28,620 nucleotides of DNA from a virus. The stretch covers positions 1 through 28,620 of IMG/VR virus record IMGVR_UViG_3300050158_000039, one strand, 5' to 3'. Positions 21,682 through 26,567 of this stretch are shown piece after piece (position 1 is the stretch's first letter; every line of letters begins with the position of its first letter). The notes beneath the pieces are model-generated. The model was not told the DNA's origin and ran no database searches. It worked only from the letters and a program-made list of their open reading frames with translations. The translations under genes were made by a program, and so were the position numbers.

Positions 21682-22158
21682 GTACTTACGAGTCGGTGGA
21701 ATCCACCGATACCAATCTTTGACCTCTTGAACGATCGGTTCAAAATTGTCGTGAACTGTGACAGTAGGATACTCCATCTCTAACTGCTTTTCAACGTCAA
21801 ACTTACGGGGGTAAGCTGGGTGGCAGCCAACAAACATTGTTCGCCGAGCAACTGACGCCTGTCCAAGTTCAAACAGCGTGATTGGACACAGTGTGTTGTA
21901 CGGGAACCAAAAGATCATGGCGTCGCACATACGAATGTGACGATACTCCCAATCAATCTGAAACTCAGACTGCGTGGGATCAGAAATGTCAAACGATGAG
22001 CGGCGTGGGTTGACCAGAACGAAGTCGTCAGGCATGTATTTGAACCGGTCAATCATTTCCTTTTGCCAATCTGGGCACCCCGAAATGCCGCCGCCGAGGA
22101 AGACGCGCACAGAGCCATCATTCTTCGTCAATTCAGTAGGACACTCAATTACTTTCAT
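21679..22158 (-). CDS. nucleoside 2-deoxyribosyltransferase-like protein
   Basis: VFLGGGI.GCPDWQ, NPRR, QIDWEY, FWFP..TLCPITLFELG. Confidence 0.85.
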   Translation of the reverse strand: MKVIECPTELTKNDGSVRVFLGGGISGCPDWQKEMIDRFKYMPDDFVLVNPRRSSFDISDPTQSEFQIDWEYRHIRMCDAMIFWFPYNTLCPITLFELGQASVARRTMFVGCHPAYPRKFDVEKQLEMEYPTVTVHDNFEPIVQEVKDWYRWIPPTRKY

Positions 22159-22768
22159 CATCGTTCTCCGCTTGTTTCAACACGGGGTATAACTGTTCAG
22201 CTAACGTTCCCATTTTGGAGTGATCACCAGGATCTCTTCCAGCCGTACGCATGATTTCACTGCATTTGTGCCAGTTGATCAATCCTGCTATTGTGTGTCC
22301 AGCTTCGCTCATACCAATCTCGAGATACATCCGGCACTCTAGGTAGTTGCGCCATGAGAATCCTTCATATGTGTCACACTTGACGGCGTTACGTACGAAT
22401 TCAGGGGGGAGGTATTCATCTTCAATCGCAACGTAGTGCGACACTTCTGGGTGGTTATCCAACCACCACCGGATTTCATGACACCGGTAACTGGACAACT
22501 TACGGGGTGTGATCCAATCTTCGTGCAGAAACGTCTCATCAATTCCGTTTGCTGCTAGGACTTGGACAACAGCATCGCGGCCTTTTACGCCCCACGTACT
22601 AGAAATCACCAACTTGGCATTAGCGTCTTCCAATAGTCGCAACAACAGGGAAACAGCGCATGGATCAAATACCGTCACCAGCGGCTTAGTTTGGTTAAGC
22701 ATGTAGTATGCTCGAACCGGAATCATTGGACCATCAATGTCCAAGAAAATAATTTTGGGGTTAGTCAT
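22145..22768 (-). CDS. HAD-family phosphatase (Swiss-army-knife RNA-repair type)
   Basis: IIFLDIDG, LVISSTW, EIRWWL...YVAIED. Confidence 0.8.
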   Translation of the reverse strand: MTNPKIIFLDIDGPMIPVRAYYMLNQTKPLVTVFDPCAVSLLLRLLEDANAKLVISSTWGVKGRDAVVQVLAANGIDETFLHEDWITPRKLSSYRCHEIRWWLDNHPEVSHYVAIEDEYLPPEFVRNAVKCDTYEGFSWRNYLECRMYLEIGMSEAGHTIAGLINWHKCSEIMRTAGRDPGDHSKMGTLAEQLYPVLKQAENDDESN

Positions 22769-22796: not shown

Positions 22797-23027
22797 TTAT
22801 TCAACAGACCACGTAAACCGCTCATATGTGCCCGATTGCGCATTGACAAATCGACTGAAATAAGACAATGCGACTGACTCACTCGGAAACAGCCTCATCA
22901 GCGATTCCGCACCGATTGCGCCAGAACCCGTCCAAGCAAACCGATGAGATACTGGAACGAACGGCCCACCATATCCCATGGTAGCGCCTTCAGCGTCAAT
23001 TACTGTGATGTACTTGACTGGTTTCAT
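22797..23027 (-). CDS. hypothetical protein
   Basis: ORF filling the gap, in the same orientation as its neighbours. Confidence 0.45.
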   Translation of the reverse strand: MKPVKYITVIDAEGATMGYGGPFVPVSHRFAWTGSGAIGAESLMRLFPSESVALSYFSRFVNAQSGTYERFTWSVE

Positions 23028-23032
23028 TTATG

Positions 23033-23066
23033 TGCCCCCGACAGGAATCGAACCTGTATCTGAACA
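23033..23066 (-). pseudogene. 3' half of a split tRNA (Arg-like body)
   Basis: TGTTC-AGAT-ACAGGTTCGATTCCTGT-CGGGGGC-A; pairs with 23620-23651. Confidence 0.8.
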
Positions 23067-23088
23067 TGACCGATACATAAATACCTCT

Positions 23089-23586
23089 ATGAAAAACTGC
23101 CTTAATTGCGCTACAGAACTGACATCACCCCACGCCCGAAAGTTTTGCTCTCGATCATGTTCGTGCACATTTAATCGTAACCGGTTGAGCACCGGACGAT
23201 ACGCCCCCAAATCCTGCTCCTGGTGTGGTGCGCTTACAACAAATCCGAAGTTTTGTTCTAAACAGTGCATGGGTTTAGCCAAGGTCAAATATCATACTGA
23301 CGAATCACGTTTAACCGCACAACGCGCGCTTGGACGAGAGGCGGTCGCTAGATACCACGCTAAAAAGAAGTACCAAACACCAGTGGATGCAGATTTAACA
23401 GCCATTAAGTTGTTTTACGCAAATTGTCCTGATGGATTCGAGATCGATCACATCATTCCAATATCAAAAGGTGGATTACACACGCTTAGCAATTTGCAGT
23501 ATCTTACCAAAGCGGACAATCGATCAAAGTCGGCAAAACTTGATTGGTGCCACCAGAGGGATTTGAACCCTCAAACATCACCTTAG
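23089..23586 (+). CDS. HNH endonuclease with zinc-finger repeats
   Basis: FCSRSC and FCSKQC; EIDHIIPISKGGLHTLSNLQYL...NRSK; ATAAATA at 23077-23083. Confidence 0.88.
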   Translation: MKNCLNCATELTSPHARKFCSRSCSCTFNRNRLSTGRYAPKSCSWCGALTTNPKFCSKQCMGLAKVKYHTDESRLTAQRALGREAVARYHAKKKYQTPVDADLTAIKLFYANCPDGFEIDHIIPISKGGLHTLSNLQYLTKADNRSKSAKLDWCHQRDLNPQTSP

Positions 23587-23619
23587 GAGGGTGAGACCTA
23601 TCCAGTAGGAGTTGGTGGC
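23545..23619 (-). tRNA. tRNA-Arg(CCU), nested inside the split tRNA
   Basis: TCACC-CTCCTAA-GGTGA; acceptor GCCACCA/TGGTGGC-ACCA. Confidence 0.85.
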
Positions 23620-23651
23620 GTGTCCCGTTCTGTCCATTGAACTACAGGGAC
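23620..23651 (-). pseudogene. 5' half of the split tRNA (Arg-like body)
   Basis: GTCCCTG-TA-GTTCAATGGACAGAAC-G-GGACA-C. Confidence 0.8.
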
Positions 23652-23703
23652 ATTATGACTGACACGACATTTCGGCTTTACTTGCCTGGTGTGGGACGTC
23701 AGT

Positions 23704-23793
23704 TGGAGGAAGATAATGGAATCGAACCATCCCCGATTCATCACCGAGGGCCGAGCTTTCGAGACTCGTTATGCACCATGCATGCTATCTTCC
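23704..23793 (-). tRNA. tRNA-Ser(CGA)
   Basis: CGAGT-CTCGAAA-GCTCG; long variable arm; CCA. Confidence 0.85.
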
Positions 23794-23828
23794 GTTTAGT
23801 GGGGTATTTACTACCCCACTCTTGTTCC

Positions 23829-26466: not shown

Positions 26467-26567
26467 TGGGTAGTGAGGGTTTCGAACCCCCGACCCTCTC
26501 CTTGTTCCTTTGCCGCACAATCTTGGCTGGCCGGAAGGGAGACGCTCTACCACTGAGCTAACCACCC
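26467..26567 (-). tRNA. tRNA-Val(UAC) interrupted by a 29-nt anticodon insertion
   Basis: Canonical Val body; TCTCC-CTT[29 nt]ACAA-GGAGA; no encoded CCA. Confidence 0.75.

What the first reader, a model, noticed from the sequence alone, without database searches (positions are those of the whole stretch)
23033..23651. Nested tRNA: an outer tRNA split at the anticodon by a cassette carrying an intact tRNA-Arg(CCU) and an HNH gene
Seen: the 5' half (23651-23620) and 3' half (23066-23033) still form an acceptor stem (GTCCCTG/CGGGGGC), D-arm, T-arm and a 5-bp anticodon stem (GGACA/TGTTC). The anticodon loop is replaced by about 550 nt, starting right after C32 with a complete, divergent tRNA-Arg(CCU), followed by an antisense HNH gene whose TAG stop lies in the inner tRNA's anticodon loop. 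The outer body resembles bacterial tRNA-Arg (from memory). Inference: either a homing cassette that destroys its tRNA target while supplying a cleavage-resistant replacement, or a precursor whose processing releases the inner tRNA and leaves a two-piece anticodon-less tRNA.
Basis: partly seen in the sequence, partly recalled or inferred. Interest (0 to 1): 0.8.

Follow-up and report, generated by a model that had tools for sequence, protein, structure and literature searches.

The report
Nuclease cassette splits phage arginine tRNA
A selfish DNA cassette carrying an HNH nuclease gene and its own arginine tRNA has landed in the anticodon loop of this large phage's resident arginine tRNA gene, so the two "halves" are most likely the scar of a cut-and-replace invasion and not a working split gene.

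Summary
On the minus strand, 32 nt of a tRNA 5' half (23651-23620) and 34 nt of a 3' half (23066-23033) flank a 553-nt insert. The insert holds a complete tRNA-Arg(CCU) and an opposite-strand HNH endonuclease gene whose stop codon lies in that tRNA's anticodon loop.

- **Intact allele found.** Four related phage contigs with the same neighbouring genes have no HNH. Each carries one intact tRNA-Arg(CCU) at this spot, 70-74% identical to the joined halves. The only gap is the six bases U33-A38.
- **The layout recurs.** The HNH belongs to a large uncharacterised family of uncultured phages whose 3' end is welded to a tRNA gene. Matched outer halves flank the cassette in 8 of 23 loci, against 3 of 502 cross-locus controls. 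Outer and inner tRNA nearly always share an isotype.
- **Not an intron or artefact.** No intron signature was found, and an independent contig from another sample is identical across the whole locus.

Best reading: a free-standing homing endonuclease that breaks its tRNA target and supplies a spare. Cleavage and resistance are inferred, not shown.

This scan has noted the same design on other phage genomes. I found no paper describing it. It is a new variant of a known kind.

The parts
23620..23651 (-). Outer tRNA 5' half: positions 1-32 of a former tRNA-Arg(CCU), with acceptor 5' strand, U8 A9, D arm, G26, anticodon-stem 5' strand and C32
   Evidence: Read. ARAGORN intron mode. Aligns to the 5' part of the intact syntenic tRNA-Arg(CCU) genes of L173, L202, L204 and L179.
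23545..23619 (-). Inner, complete tRNA-Arg(CCU) with encoded CCA. This is the cargo of the cassette. It is divergent (A8, a U10-U25 mismatch) but conserved in the sister locus L004.
   Evidence: ARAGORN. Rfam RF00005 at 46.9 bits. L004 carries the same tRNA with a compensatory change at acceptor pair 7-66.
23089..23586 (+). HNH (His-Me finger) endonuclease gene of 165 codons, with N-terminal Cys-rich zinc-ribbon-like repeats. Its last 42 nt, including the TAG stop, are antisense to the 3' part of the inner tRNA.
   Evidence: ORF. Pfam PF01844 E=1.5e-7. PHROG 1271. 211 homologues with all invariant columns kept.
23077..23083 (+). ATAAATA heptamer 5 nt upstream of the HNH ATG. It is a conserved right-end element of the cassette and a possible promoter.
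   Evidence: An ATAAATA-like motif lies within 20 nt upstream of the ATG in 48 of 87 family loci. TATAAATA is rare in this genome.
23067..23076 (-). 10-nt filler between the cassette's right end and the outer 3' half. It does not form an anticodon loop.
   Evidence: The intact orthologues have a 7-nt CUCCUAA or UUCCUAA loop here.
23033..23066 (-). Outer tRNA 3' half: positions 39-73, with anticodon-stem 3' strand, variable region, T arm, acceptor 3' strand and A73. No CCA is encoded.
   Evidence: Partial Rfam tRNA hit at 23041-23061. 19 of 20 identical to the T arm of the phage's own tRNA-Arg(CCG). Aligns to the intact syntenic alleles.
23704..23793 (-). tRNA-Ser(CGA), the upstream neighbour on the same strand. 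It is a synteny marker shared with the HNH-less relatives.
   Evidence: L173, L202 and L169 have tRNA-Ser(CGA) upstream of their tRNA-Arg.
22797..23027 (-). 76-aa ORF immediately downstream of the outer 3' half. It is a synteny marker.
   Evidence: 40% identical to the ORF that follows the intact tRNA-Arg(CCU) in L173. A homologous ORF follows the remnant in L004.
22145..22759 (-). HAD_SAK_2 (RNA-repair-type HAD) gene. It was the synteny anchor used to find HNH-less relatives.
   Evidence: Pfam PF18143 E=8.6e-20. Homologues. 54% identical to the L173 protein.

Best explanation
The locus is a resident phage tRNA-Arg(CCU) gene broken by a free-standing HNH homing-endonuclease cassette.

The cassette is about 553 bp. 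It holds a complete foreign tRNA-Arg(CCU), the HNH gene on the other strand with its 3' end overlapping that tRNA's 3' half, and a short conserved ATAAATA element before the HNH start.

Shown here:
- The insert sits after C32 of the resident gene and replaces U33-A38.
- Related phages without the HNH have the unbroken gene at the same place.
- The same three-part design recurs through this HNH family, always with a cargo tRNA of the same isotype as the broken gene.

Inferred:
- The HNH cuts HNH-less tRNA-Arg(CCU) alleles during co-infection.
- The break is repaired from the cassette-bearing genome.
- The cargo tRNA keeps the phage supplied with tRNA-Arg(CCU), so the invasion costs little.
- The cargo tRNA escapes cutting because its stems differ from the target's.

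On this reading the outer halves are a young pseudogene scar. They may persist partly because they serve the element as homology arms. The design works like a natural 'home-and-rescue' drive aimed at a tRNA gene.
For: 1. Empty site. L173/L174, L202, L204 and L179 share the neighbouring genes (thioredoxin, tRNA-Ser(CGA), the 76-aa ORF homologue, HAD_SAK_2, nucleoside deoxyribosyltransferase, NAMPT; 40-63% aa identity). They have no HNH and one intact tRNA-Arg(CCU) at this position.
2. Native versus foreign. The joined outer halves align to those genes at 46-49 of 66 columns (70-74%). In the printed alignment to L173 the only internal gap is 6 nt in the anticodon loop. The inner tRNA matches them at 56-64%.
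3. The outer T arm is 19/20 identical to the phage's own tRNA-Arg(CCG). That fits a native gene.
4. HNH family. There are 211 protein homologues, 495 IMG/VR loci and at least 472 metagenome loci. Of 139 distinct loci, 112 have a tRNA within 500 nt. In 61 an antisense tRNA abuts or overlaps the HNH 3' end.
5. Matched outer halves (7/7 acceptor pairing followed by U8 R9) flank the cassette in 8 of 23 loci, against 3 of 502 cross-locus pairings.
6. In 11 of 13 loci the outer 5' fragment best matches a tRNA of the same isotype as the inner one.
7. On the HNH tree the welded tRNA's isotype needs 7 changes, against 32.8 in shuffles. The window falls in a well-supported 8-row Arg(CCU) clade.
8. Remnants elsewhere in the family range from perfect to heavily decayed, and 5' fragments run from 9 to about 37 nt. 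That pattern fits scars.
9. The HNH keeps every invariant residue of its family.
10. An independent contig from another sample is identical across the whole locus, and the same protein is on 13 contigs.
Against: - No cleavage, homing or expression data exist for any member of this HNH family. Cultured phages in the collection match only its catalytic domain.
- The cut site is unknown. Target and cargo have the same anticodon loop, so resistance must rest on the stems and is untested.
- All four stems of the outer tRNA are still perfect. The acceptor stem also closes the predicted minimum-energy fold of the 626-nt transcript. This fits a very recent event, but also selection on the halves.
- The sister locus L004 has different junctions (5' fragment of 9 nt) and an outer acceptor stem that differs from the window's at several pairs yet still pairs perfectly. 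That needs either independent invasions or selection.
- How the non-homologous left junction, right at the first base of the cargo tRNA, was formed is unexplained.
Confidence: 0.85

Rival explanations
1. The outer halves are a working RNA. The long transcript is cut by RNase P and other tRNA-trimming enzymes, which release the inner tRNA. The two outer pieces stay paired as an anticodon-less tRNA-like molecule, perhaps a decoy for tRNA-targeting defences or a processing scaffold for the cassette transcript.
For: All four outer stems are intact. The outer acceptor stem and T arm form in the minimum-energy and centroid folds of the 626-nt RNA. In the Arg(CCU) clade every 5' fragment keeps at least the acceptor strand plus U8 A9, and 5 of 6 lineages keep perfectly matched halves. 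Earlier notes of this scan on the same genome describe several other tRNA-derived RNAs.
Against: The overall fold is no better than shuffles (z = -0.88). HNH-less relatives have an ordinary intact tRNA there. Remnants in other family members decay freely. No CCA is encoded on the outer 3' end, and about 460 nt of antisense HNH RNA would have to be removed by an unknown cut. No expression data exist.
Confidence: 0.08
2. The 553-nt insert is an intron, self-splicing or protein-assisted, and splicing restores a functional outer tRNA.
For: The insert lies in the anticodon loop, where bacterial and phage group I introns in tRNA genes sit. ARAGORN can formally model it as an intron.
Against: There is no Rfam group I or II intron match at E up to 10 in 22900-23800. 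None was found at gathering score in 20 other loci of the family. No choice of splice points yields a loop with U33 and a purine at position 37. Six bases, including the anticodon, are absent relative to the intact orthologues. The ORF is antisense to the tRNA strand, and the insert contains a complete tRNA of the same anticodon, which makes splicing unnecessary.
Confidence: 0.02
3. The resemblance is a coincidence, or a rearrangement or assembly artefact. The two halves would then be unrelated fragments of different tRNA genes brought near each other.
For: In L090-L092 the 5' fragment and the 3' remnant do not pair with each other, so mixed flanks do occur in the family.
Against: In the window, 12 inter-half pairs form in register. 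Both halves align to one intact syntenic tRNA. Shuffled genomes give about 0.2 intron-mode calls per genome. An independent contig is identical across the whole locus.
Confidence: 0.02

Closest known systems
Phage T4/T6 SegB, a free-standing GIY-YIG homing endonuclease in the tRNA gene cluster (PMC2330249; PMC13096335)
   Same: It is a free-standing nuclease gene living inside a phage tRNA array. It cuts within tRNA genes of relatives that lack it, is inherited preferentially, and drags neighbouring tRNA genes along. Its association with tRNA genes is widespread.
   Different: SegB is GIY-YIG, not HNH. It sits between tRNA genes and recognises the conserved T-loop motif of many tRNAs. Here the gene is welded antisense to one tRNA, sits inside a broken tRNA gene of the same isotype, and each lineage stays with one isotype. 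Activity here is only inferred.
Fungal mitochondrial mobile ORFs (mORFs) that carry a foreign copy of the 3' end of the invaded gene, for example Allomyces atp6 and Glomus atp6, atp9, cox2 and nad3 (PMC3630166)
   Same: An endonuclease gene arrives together with a replacement for the part of the target gene it displaces. The native part is left downstream as a remnant. The native remnant is closer to relatives than the inserted copy. In this HNH family, loci such as L005 and L126 have only a 3' remnant and so match this layout directly.
   Different: Those are protein-coding genes with in-frame fusion, and only the C-terminus is replaced. Here the target is a tRNA gene in a phage, the nuclease gene is on the opposite strand, and in the window's clade a whole spare tRNA is supplied, so remnants lie on both sides.
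Synthetic home-and-rescue (HomeR) and cleave-and-rescue gene drives (PMC7968924)
   Same: The design logic is the same: a nuclease targets a needed gene, the drive sits in that gene, and it carries a re-coded rescue copy that the nuclease should not cut.
   Different: Those are engineered Cas9 systems in insects. This is a natural protein-guided nuclease in phages, and both its cleavage and the rescue copy's resistance are untested.
Group I introns with homing endonucleases in tRNA anticodon loops
   Same: The insert is at the anticodon loop of a tRNA gene and carries a homing-type nuclease gene.
   Different: There is no intron RNA signature and no way to restore an anticodon loop. The ORF is antisense, and function is kept by replacement instead of splicing.
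Genes split by homing-endonuclease genes: 'fractured genes' with split inteins (PMC2677866)
   Same: A free-standing nuclease gene lies between two halves of a broken gene.
   Different: In those cases the two protein halves are rejoined by trans-splicing inteins and still function. Here the anticodon is gone and a spare gene does the work.

Membership tests
Free-standing homing endonuclease gene, HNH / His-Me finger type | HNH catalytic domain present and intact | tested here: met
   Pfam PF01844 at 31.9 bits against a cut-off of 21.4. PHROG 1271. All 30 invariant columns of 31 homologues are kept, including the D-H, N and N motif residues.
Free-standing homing endonuclease gene, HNH / His-Me finger type | Present in some and absent from other related genomes at the same site, with the empty site holding an intact target | tested here: met
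   The window and L004 carry it. L173/L174, L202, L204 and L179 lack it and have an intact tRNA-Arg(CCU) there.
Free-standing homing endonuclease gene, HNH / His-Me finger type | Not housed in a self-splicing intron or an intein | tested here: met
   No group I or II intron match at E up to 10. None at gathering score in 20 other family loci.
Free-standing homing endonuclease gene, HNH / His-Me finger type | Site-specific cleavage of the allele that lacks it, and preferential inheritance in mixed infection | not testable with these tools
   This needs the enzyme and phage crosses. No characterised relative was found in the PDB or in cultured phages.
Functional canonical tRNA (the outer gene) | Cloverleaf with acceptor, D, anticodon and T stems | tested here: met
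   All 21 stem pairs form when the halves are joined.
Functional canonical tRNA (the outer gene) | Continuous 7-nt anticodon loop with U33, an anticodon and a purine at position 37 | tested here: not met
   U33-A38 are replaced by 553 nt. No splice choice gives a canonical loop.
Functional canonical tRNA (the inner tRNA-Arg(CCU)) | Score above the Rfam tRNA threshold and conservation with compensatory change | tested here: met
   46.9 bits against 29. The L004 copy differs at acceptor pair 7-66 on both sides and still pairs. A8 and the U10-U25 mismatch are unusual but shared by both copies.
Group I intron in a tRNA anticodon loop | Intron RNA core (Rfam RF00028), with the 5' exon ending in U | tested here: not met
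   No match. The base before the insert is C32, and no U lies nearby.
mORF-type gene hybrid (endonuclease plus a duplicated replacement of the target) | Inserted copy is foreign, and the displaced native part is closer to relatives | tested here: met
   Outer 70-74% against inner 56-64% identity to four syntenic intact alleles.
mORF-type gene hybrid (endonuclease plus a duplicated replacement of the target) | Endonuclease ORF and replacement fused in frame to a protein-coding host gene | tested here: not met
   The target is an RNA gene, and the HNH is on the opposite strand.
SegB-like (GIY-YIG) tRNA-cluster endonucleases | GIY-YIG catalytic domain | tested here: not met
   Only HNH families match.

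The most novel reading that the evidence does not exclude
The split outer tRNA is kept, not merely left over, in one of two ways.
- The two halves may be the cassette's portable homology arms. They would let it home into any phage that has a tRNA-Arg(CCU), whatever the surrounding genes.
- The halves may pair in the transcript into an anticodon-less tRNA-like handle. Host tRNA-trimming enzymes would use it to release the spare tRNA, and the handle could persist as a decoy for tRNA-cutting defences.

Either way the scar would be a functional part of a natural tRNA-targeting gene drive.
Probability: 0.12. Interest if true: 0.85.

Novelty: new variant of a known kind. Interest (0 to 1): 0.6.

Why it matters
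Phage tRNA arrays are now seen as counter-defence gear, and how they gain, lose and swap tRNA genes is poorly understood. This locus, with the family survey behind it, points to one concrete engine: HNH nuclease genes physically welded to a tRNA gene, which break the resident gene of the same isotype and install their own.

- It would explain divergent 'foreign' tRNAs and orphan tRNA fragments in phage arrays.
- It flags an annotation trap. Database proteins of this family carry false N- and C-terminal extensions that are antisense tRNA.
- It offers a natural counterpart of engineered home-and-rescue gene drives.
- It offers a family of presumably tRNA-gene-specific nucleases to characterise.

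Tried and rejected
- DNA searches for close relatives found nothing useful. blastn and megablast against 50,697 phage records returned only generic tRNA-Ser or tRNA matches. An exact 25-nt pattern from the 5' half had no hit in IMG/VR.
- Single-protein locus searches with the HAD and HNH proteins gave only distant hits. Alignment-based searches and exact-protein look-ups were needed.
- Intron readings were rejected: no Rfam intron hit and no canonical loop obtainable.
I found no group I intron in 20 other loci of this family at gathering score. This sample is limited.
- There is no second copy of the HNH or of either half elsewhere in the 183-kb genome.
- Absence of an encoded CCA on the outer 3' end is not informative. 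11 of the phage's 52 tRNAs also lack it.
- The ATAAATA element is not a general T4-type late promoter of this phage. TATAAATA occurs only 5 times in the genome.
- The PDB profile search gave only generic HNH domains of Cas8f fusions and Cas9.
- HAD relatives L170-L172, L175, L176, L200, L201 and L205 are not syntenic on the tRNA side and were uninformative.
- Structure and complex prediction were not used, because they would not bear on the question.

Full report
**Setting.** The window is the first 28.6 kb of a single 183,069-bp contig. It looks like a large phage genome with about 52 tRNA genes, nearly all on the minus strand. The finding lies between a tRNA-Ser(CGA) (23704-23793) and a 76-aa ORF followed by a HAD_SAK_2 gene, all on the minus strand.

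**The observation.**
- 23651-23620 is a tRNA 5' half ending at C32.
- 23619-23545 is a complete tRNA-Arg(CCU) with encoded CCA. ARAGORN calls it, and Rfam tRNA scores it 46.9 bits against a threshold of 29.
- 23066-23033 is a tRNA 3' half starting at position 39.
- The two halves pair in a 7-bp acceptor stem and a 5-bp anticodon stem. Each half carries its own D arm or T arm.
- The + strand ORF between them has a real start at 23089 and a stop at 23584-23586. It is an HNH endonuclease (Pfam PF01844; PHROG 1271).
- Its TAG stop is the complement of positions 35-37 of the inner tRNA, so the last 42 nt of the gene are antisense tRNA.

ARAGORN in intron mode calls the outer tRNA with a 547-nt 'intron', but only by building a loop without U33 and without a purine at position 37. 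Locally shuffled genomes gave one intron-mode call in five genome equivalents. The other four calls in the real genome are joins of two complete neighbouring tRNAs.

The exact HNH protein is on 13 contigs. One contig from a different sample is 100% identical over 3609 nt, including the whole locus. An assembly artefact is therefore very unlikely.

**What the outer gene was.** Among 778 tRNAs from this genome and all fetched loci, the best matches to the halves are arginine tRNAs. These include the phage's own tRNA-Arg(CCG), whose T arm is 19/20 identical.

The decisive result came from relatives found through the neighbouring HAD_SAK_2 protein.
- Contigs L173/L174, L202, L204 and L179 share the gene neighbourhood: thioredoxin, tRNA-Ser(CGA), the homologue of the 76-aa ORF, HAD, nucleoside deoxyribosyltransferase and NAMPT. 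The proteins compared with L173 are 40-63% identical.
- These contigs contain no HNH.
- Each has a single intact tRNA-Arg(CCU) just where the window has the nested structure.
- The joined halves align to these genes at 70-74% identity (46-49 of 66 columns). In the printed alignment to L173 the one internal gap is six bases in the anticodon loop, U33 to A38.
- The inner tRNA is only 56-64% identical to them.

So the outer gene is the native tRNA-Arg(CCU) of this phage lineage, and the inner one is a foreign gene of the same anticodon.

**The cassette is one of many.** The HNH has 211 homologues in the protein collection. It has 495 confirmed loci in IMG/VR and at least 472 in metagenomes. In cultured phages only the catalytic domain finds matches, and no close relative has a solved structure.

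I surveyed 139 distinct loci.
- 112 have a tRNA within 500 nt.
- In 61, a tRNA on the opposite strand abuts or overlaps the HNH 3' end.
- That tRNA is always Trp, Met, Arg, Pro or Cys.
- The odd C-terminal tails and N-terminal 'extensions' of database proteins in this family are antisense translations of tRNA T arms.

Downstream of the HNH start there is often an orphan T arm plus acceptor 3' strand.
- In 8 of 23 such loci this strand pairs 7/7 with a 7-mer followed by U8 R9, lying just upstream of the inner tRNA. The loci are the window, L004, L007, L010, L012, L023, L051 and L089.
- Cross-locus controls gave 3 matches in 502 pairings.
- A tRNA 5'-fragment motif lies within 45 nt upstream of the inner tRNA in 16 of 61 loci, where about 5 are expected.
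- In 11 of 13 loci the outer fragment best matches a tRNA of the same isotype as the inner tRNA.
- Other loci (L005, L126) have only a 3' remnant, which pairs with the inner tRNA's own 5' strand. There the cassette replaced just the 3' part.
- Remnants range from perfect to badly decayed (L009, L013, L015, L093).

On a maximum-likelihood tree of 61 HNH proteins, the isotype of the welded tRNA needs 7 changes, against a shuffled mean of 32.8. The window sits in a well-supported 8-row clade, all welded to tRNA-Arg(CCU), in which 5 of 6 lineages have matched outer halves. Related rows share labels, so this shows stable linkage of nuclease and tRNA, not co-evolution.

**How it most likely works.**

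Shown:
- the insertion, with loss of six bases;
- the empty sites in relatives;
- the foreign spare tRNA of the same anticodon;
- the recurrence of the design;
- an HNH gene that keeps every residue invariant among the 31 aligned family members.

Inferred:
- The HNH cuts HNH-less tRNA-Arg(CCU) genes in co-infecting phages.
- Repair copies the cassette into the break.
- The spare tRNA makes the loss of the resident gene harmless.
- The spare escapes cutting because its stems differ from the target's. The loops are identical, so resistance cannot lie there.

Because the HNH 3' end overlaps the tRNA 3' half, the nuclease gene cannot be copied whole without the tRNA part.

The ATAAATA heptamer 5 nt before the ATG (23077-23083) recurs in 48 of 87 family loci and is rare in this genome. 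It looks like the cassette's own expression signal.

A sigma-70-like promoter at 24460-24432 could drive the minus-strand transcript through the whole locus. No terminator-like site separates the inner tRNA from the outer 3' half.

**Open points.**
- The sister locus L004 has an HNH 72% identical, the same inner tRNA and the same downstream genes. Its outer tRNA keeps only 9 nt on the 5' side.
- L004's outer acceptor stem differs from the window's at several pairs, all by transitions, yet is perfectly paired. Independent invasions of diverged resident genes explain this. So would selection on the stem.
- The outer acceptor stem closes the predicted fold of the 626-nt transcript, although the fold as a whole is no better than shuffles.
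- I therefore keep a small probability that the halves are retained, as homology arms for the element or as an RNA handle.
- The intron reading is rejected. There is no intron RNA signature here or in 20 other family loci, no restorable loop, and the ORF is antisense.

**Comparison with what is known.**
- Free-standing homing endonucleases in phage tRNA clusters are known from T4/T6 SegB, a GIY-YIG enzyme that cuts tRNA genes at the T-loop motif and carries neighbouring tRNA genes with it (PMC2330249, PMC13096335).
- Endonuclease genes that bring a foreign replacement for the displaced part of their target, leaving the native part as a remnant, are known from fungal mitochondrial mORFs (PMC3630166).
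- The logic equals that of engineered home-and-rescue drives (PMC7968924).
- Full-text searches found no paper describing HNH genes welded to a spare tRNA and nested in the tRNA gene they broke. Subscription journals are not covered.
- Earlier notes of this scan report the same design on other phage genomes for Thr, Leu, Pro, Gln and Arg. These are unchecked AI notes that agree with my reading. I reached it before consulting them.

**Verdict.** The locus is a new variant of a known kind of selfish element, of moderate to good interest. It is most likely a scar plus a working spare, not a functional split tRNA.

Noticed in passing
window 26467-26567 (-): A strong Rfam tRNA match (56.3 bits) with a 32-nt insert inside the anticodon loop. 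ARAGORN does not call it. It may belong with the stalk-bearing tRNA-like RNAs noted earlier in this genome.
   Followed up: partly
window 23077-23083 (+), and L005, L010, L012, L013, L019, L034 and others: An ATAAATA-like heptamer lies within 20 nt upstream of the HNH ATG in 48 of 87 family loci. In some loci (L018, L116, L119, L126) it sits about 65 nt upstream, before a leader that appears conserved among them. TATAAATA is rare in this genome, so the element seems to travel with the cassette.
   Followed up: partly
window 23067-23071 (minus-strand GGTCA): The five bases just 5' of the outer 3' half equal positions 39-43 of the intact tRNA-Arg(CCU) of relative L202. They may be a scrap of an earlier target carried along with the cassette, or chance.
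   Followed up: no
G000:C1:54164-54239, 37335-37407 and 41935-42012 (outside the window): ARAGORN calls a tRNA with a CUA anticodon (amber-reading, labelled 'Pyl') and two tRNA-like genes with 2-nt or 4-nt anticodons.
   Followed up: no
Proteins P0001, P0021, P0022 and P0027, and C-terminal tails of many others (alignment A1): Gene callers extend these HNH ORFs into flanking tRNA genes. Motifs such as GIEP or GFEP at the N-terminus and W..RDSN at the C-terminus are antisense T arms, not protein.
   Followed up: yes
L169:1393-1468: At the syntenic site this relative has a tRNA-like sequence with a CCU anticodon loop but an aberrant D arm. ARAGORN does not call it.
   Followed up: no
L090-L092, flanks of the inner tRNA-Arg(CCU): The 5' fragment and the 3' remnant do not pair with each other. 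These flanks may come from different invasion events, or the 5' scrap may have travelled with the cassette.
   Followed up: partly
L036:3670-3987 and L037:3319-3629: Rfam finds tmRNA genes (beta-proteobacterial or permuted type) about 0.4-0.7 kb past the HNH stop in two phage contigs.
   Followed up: no
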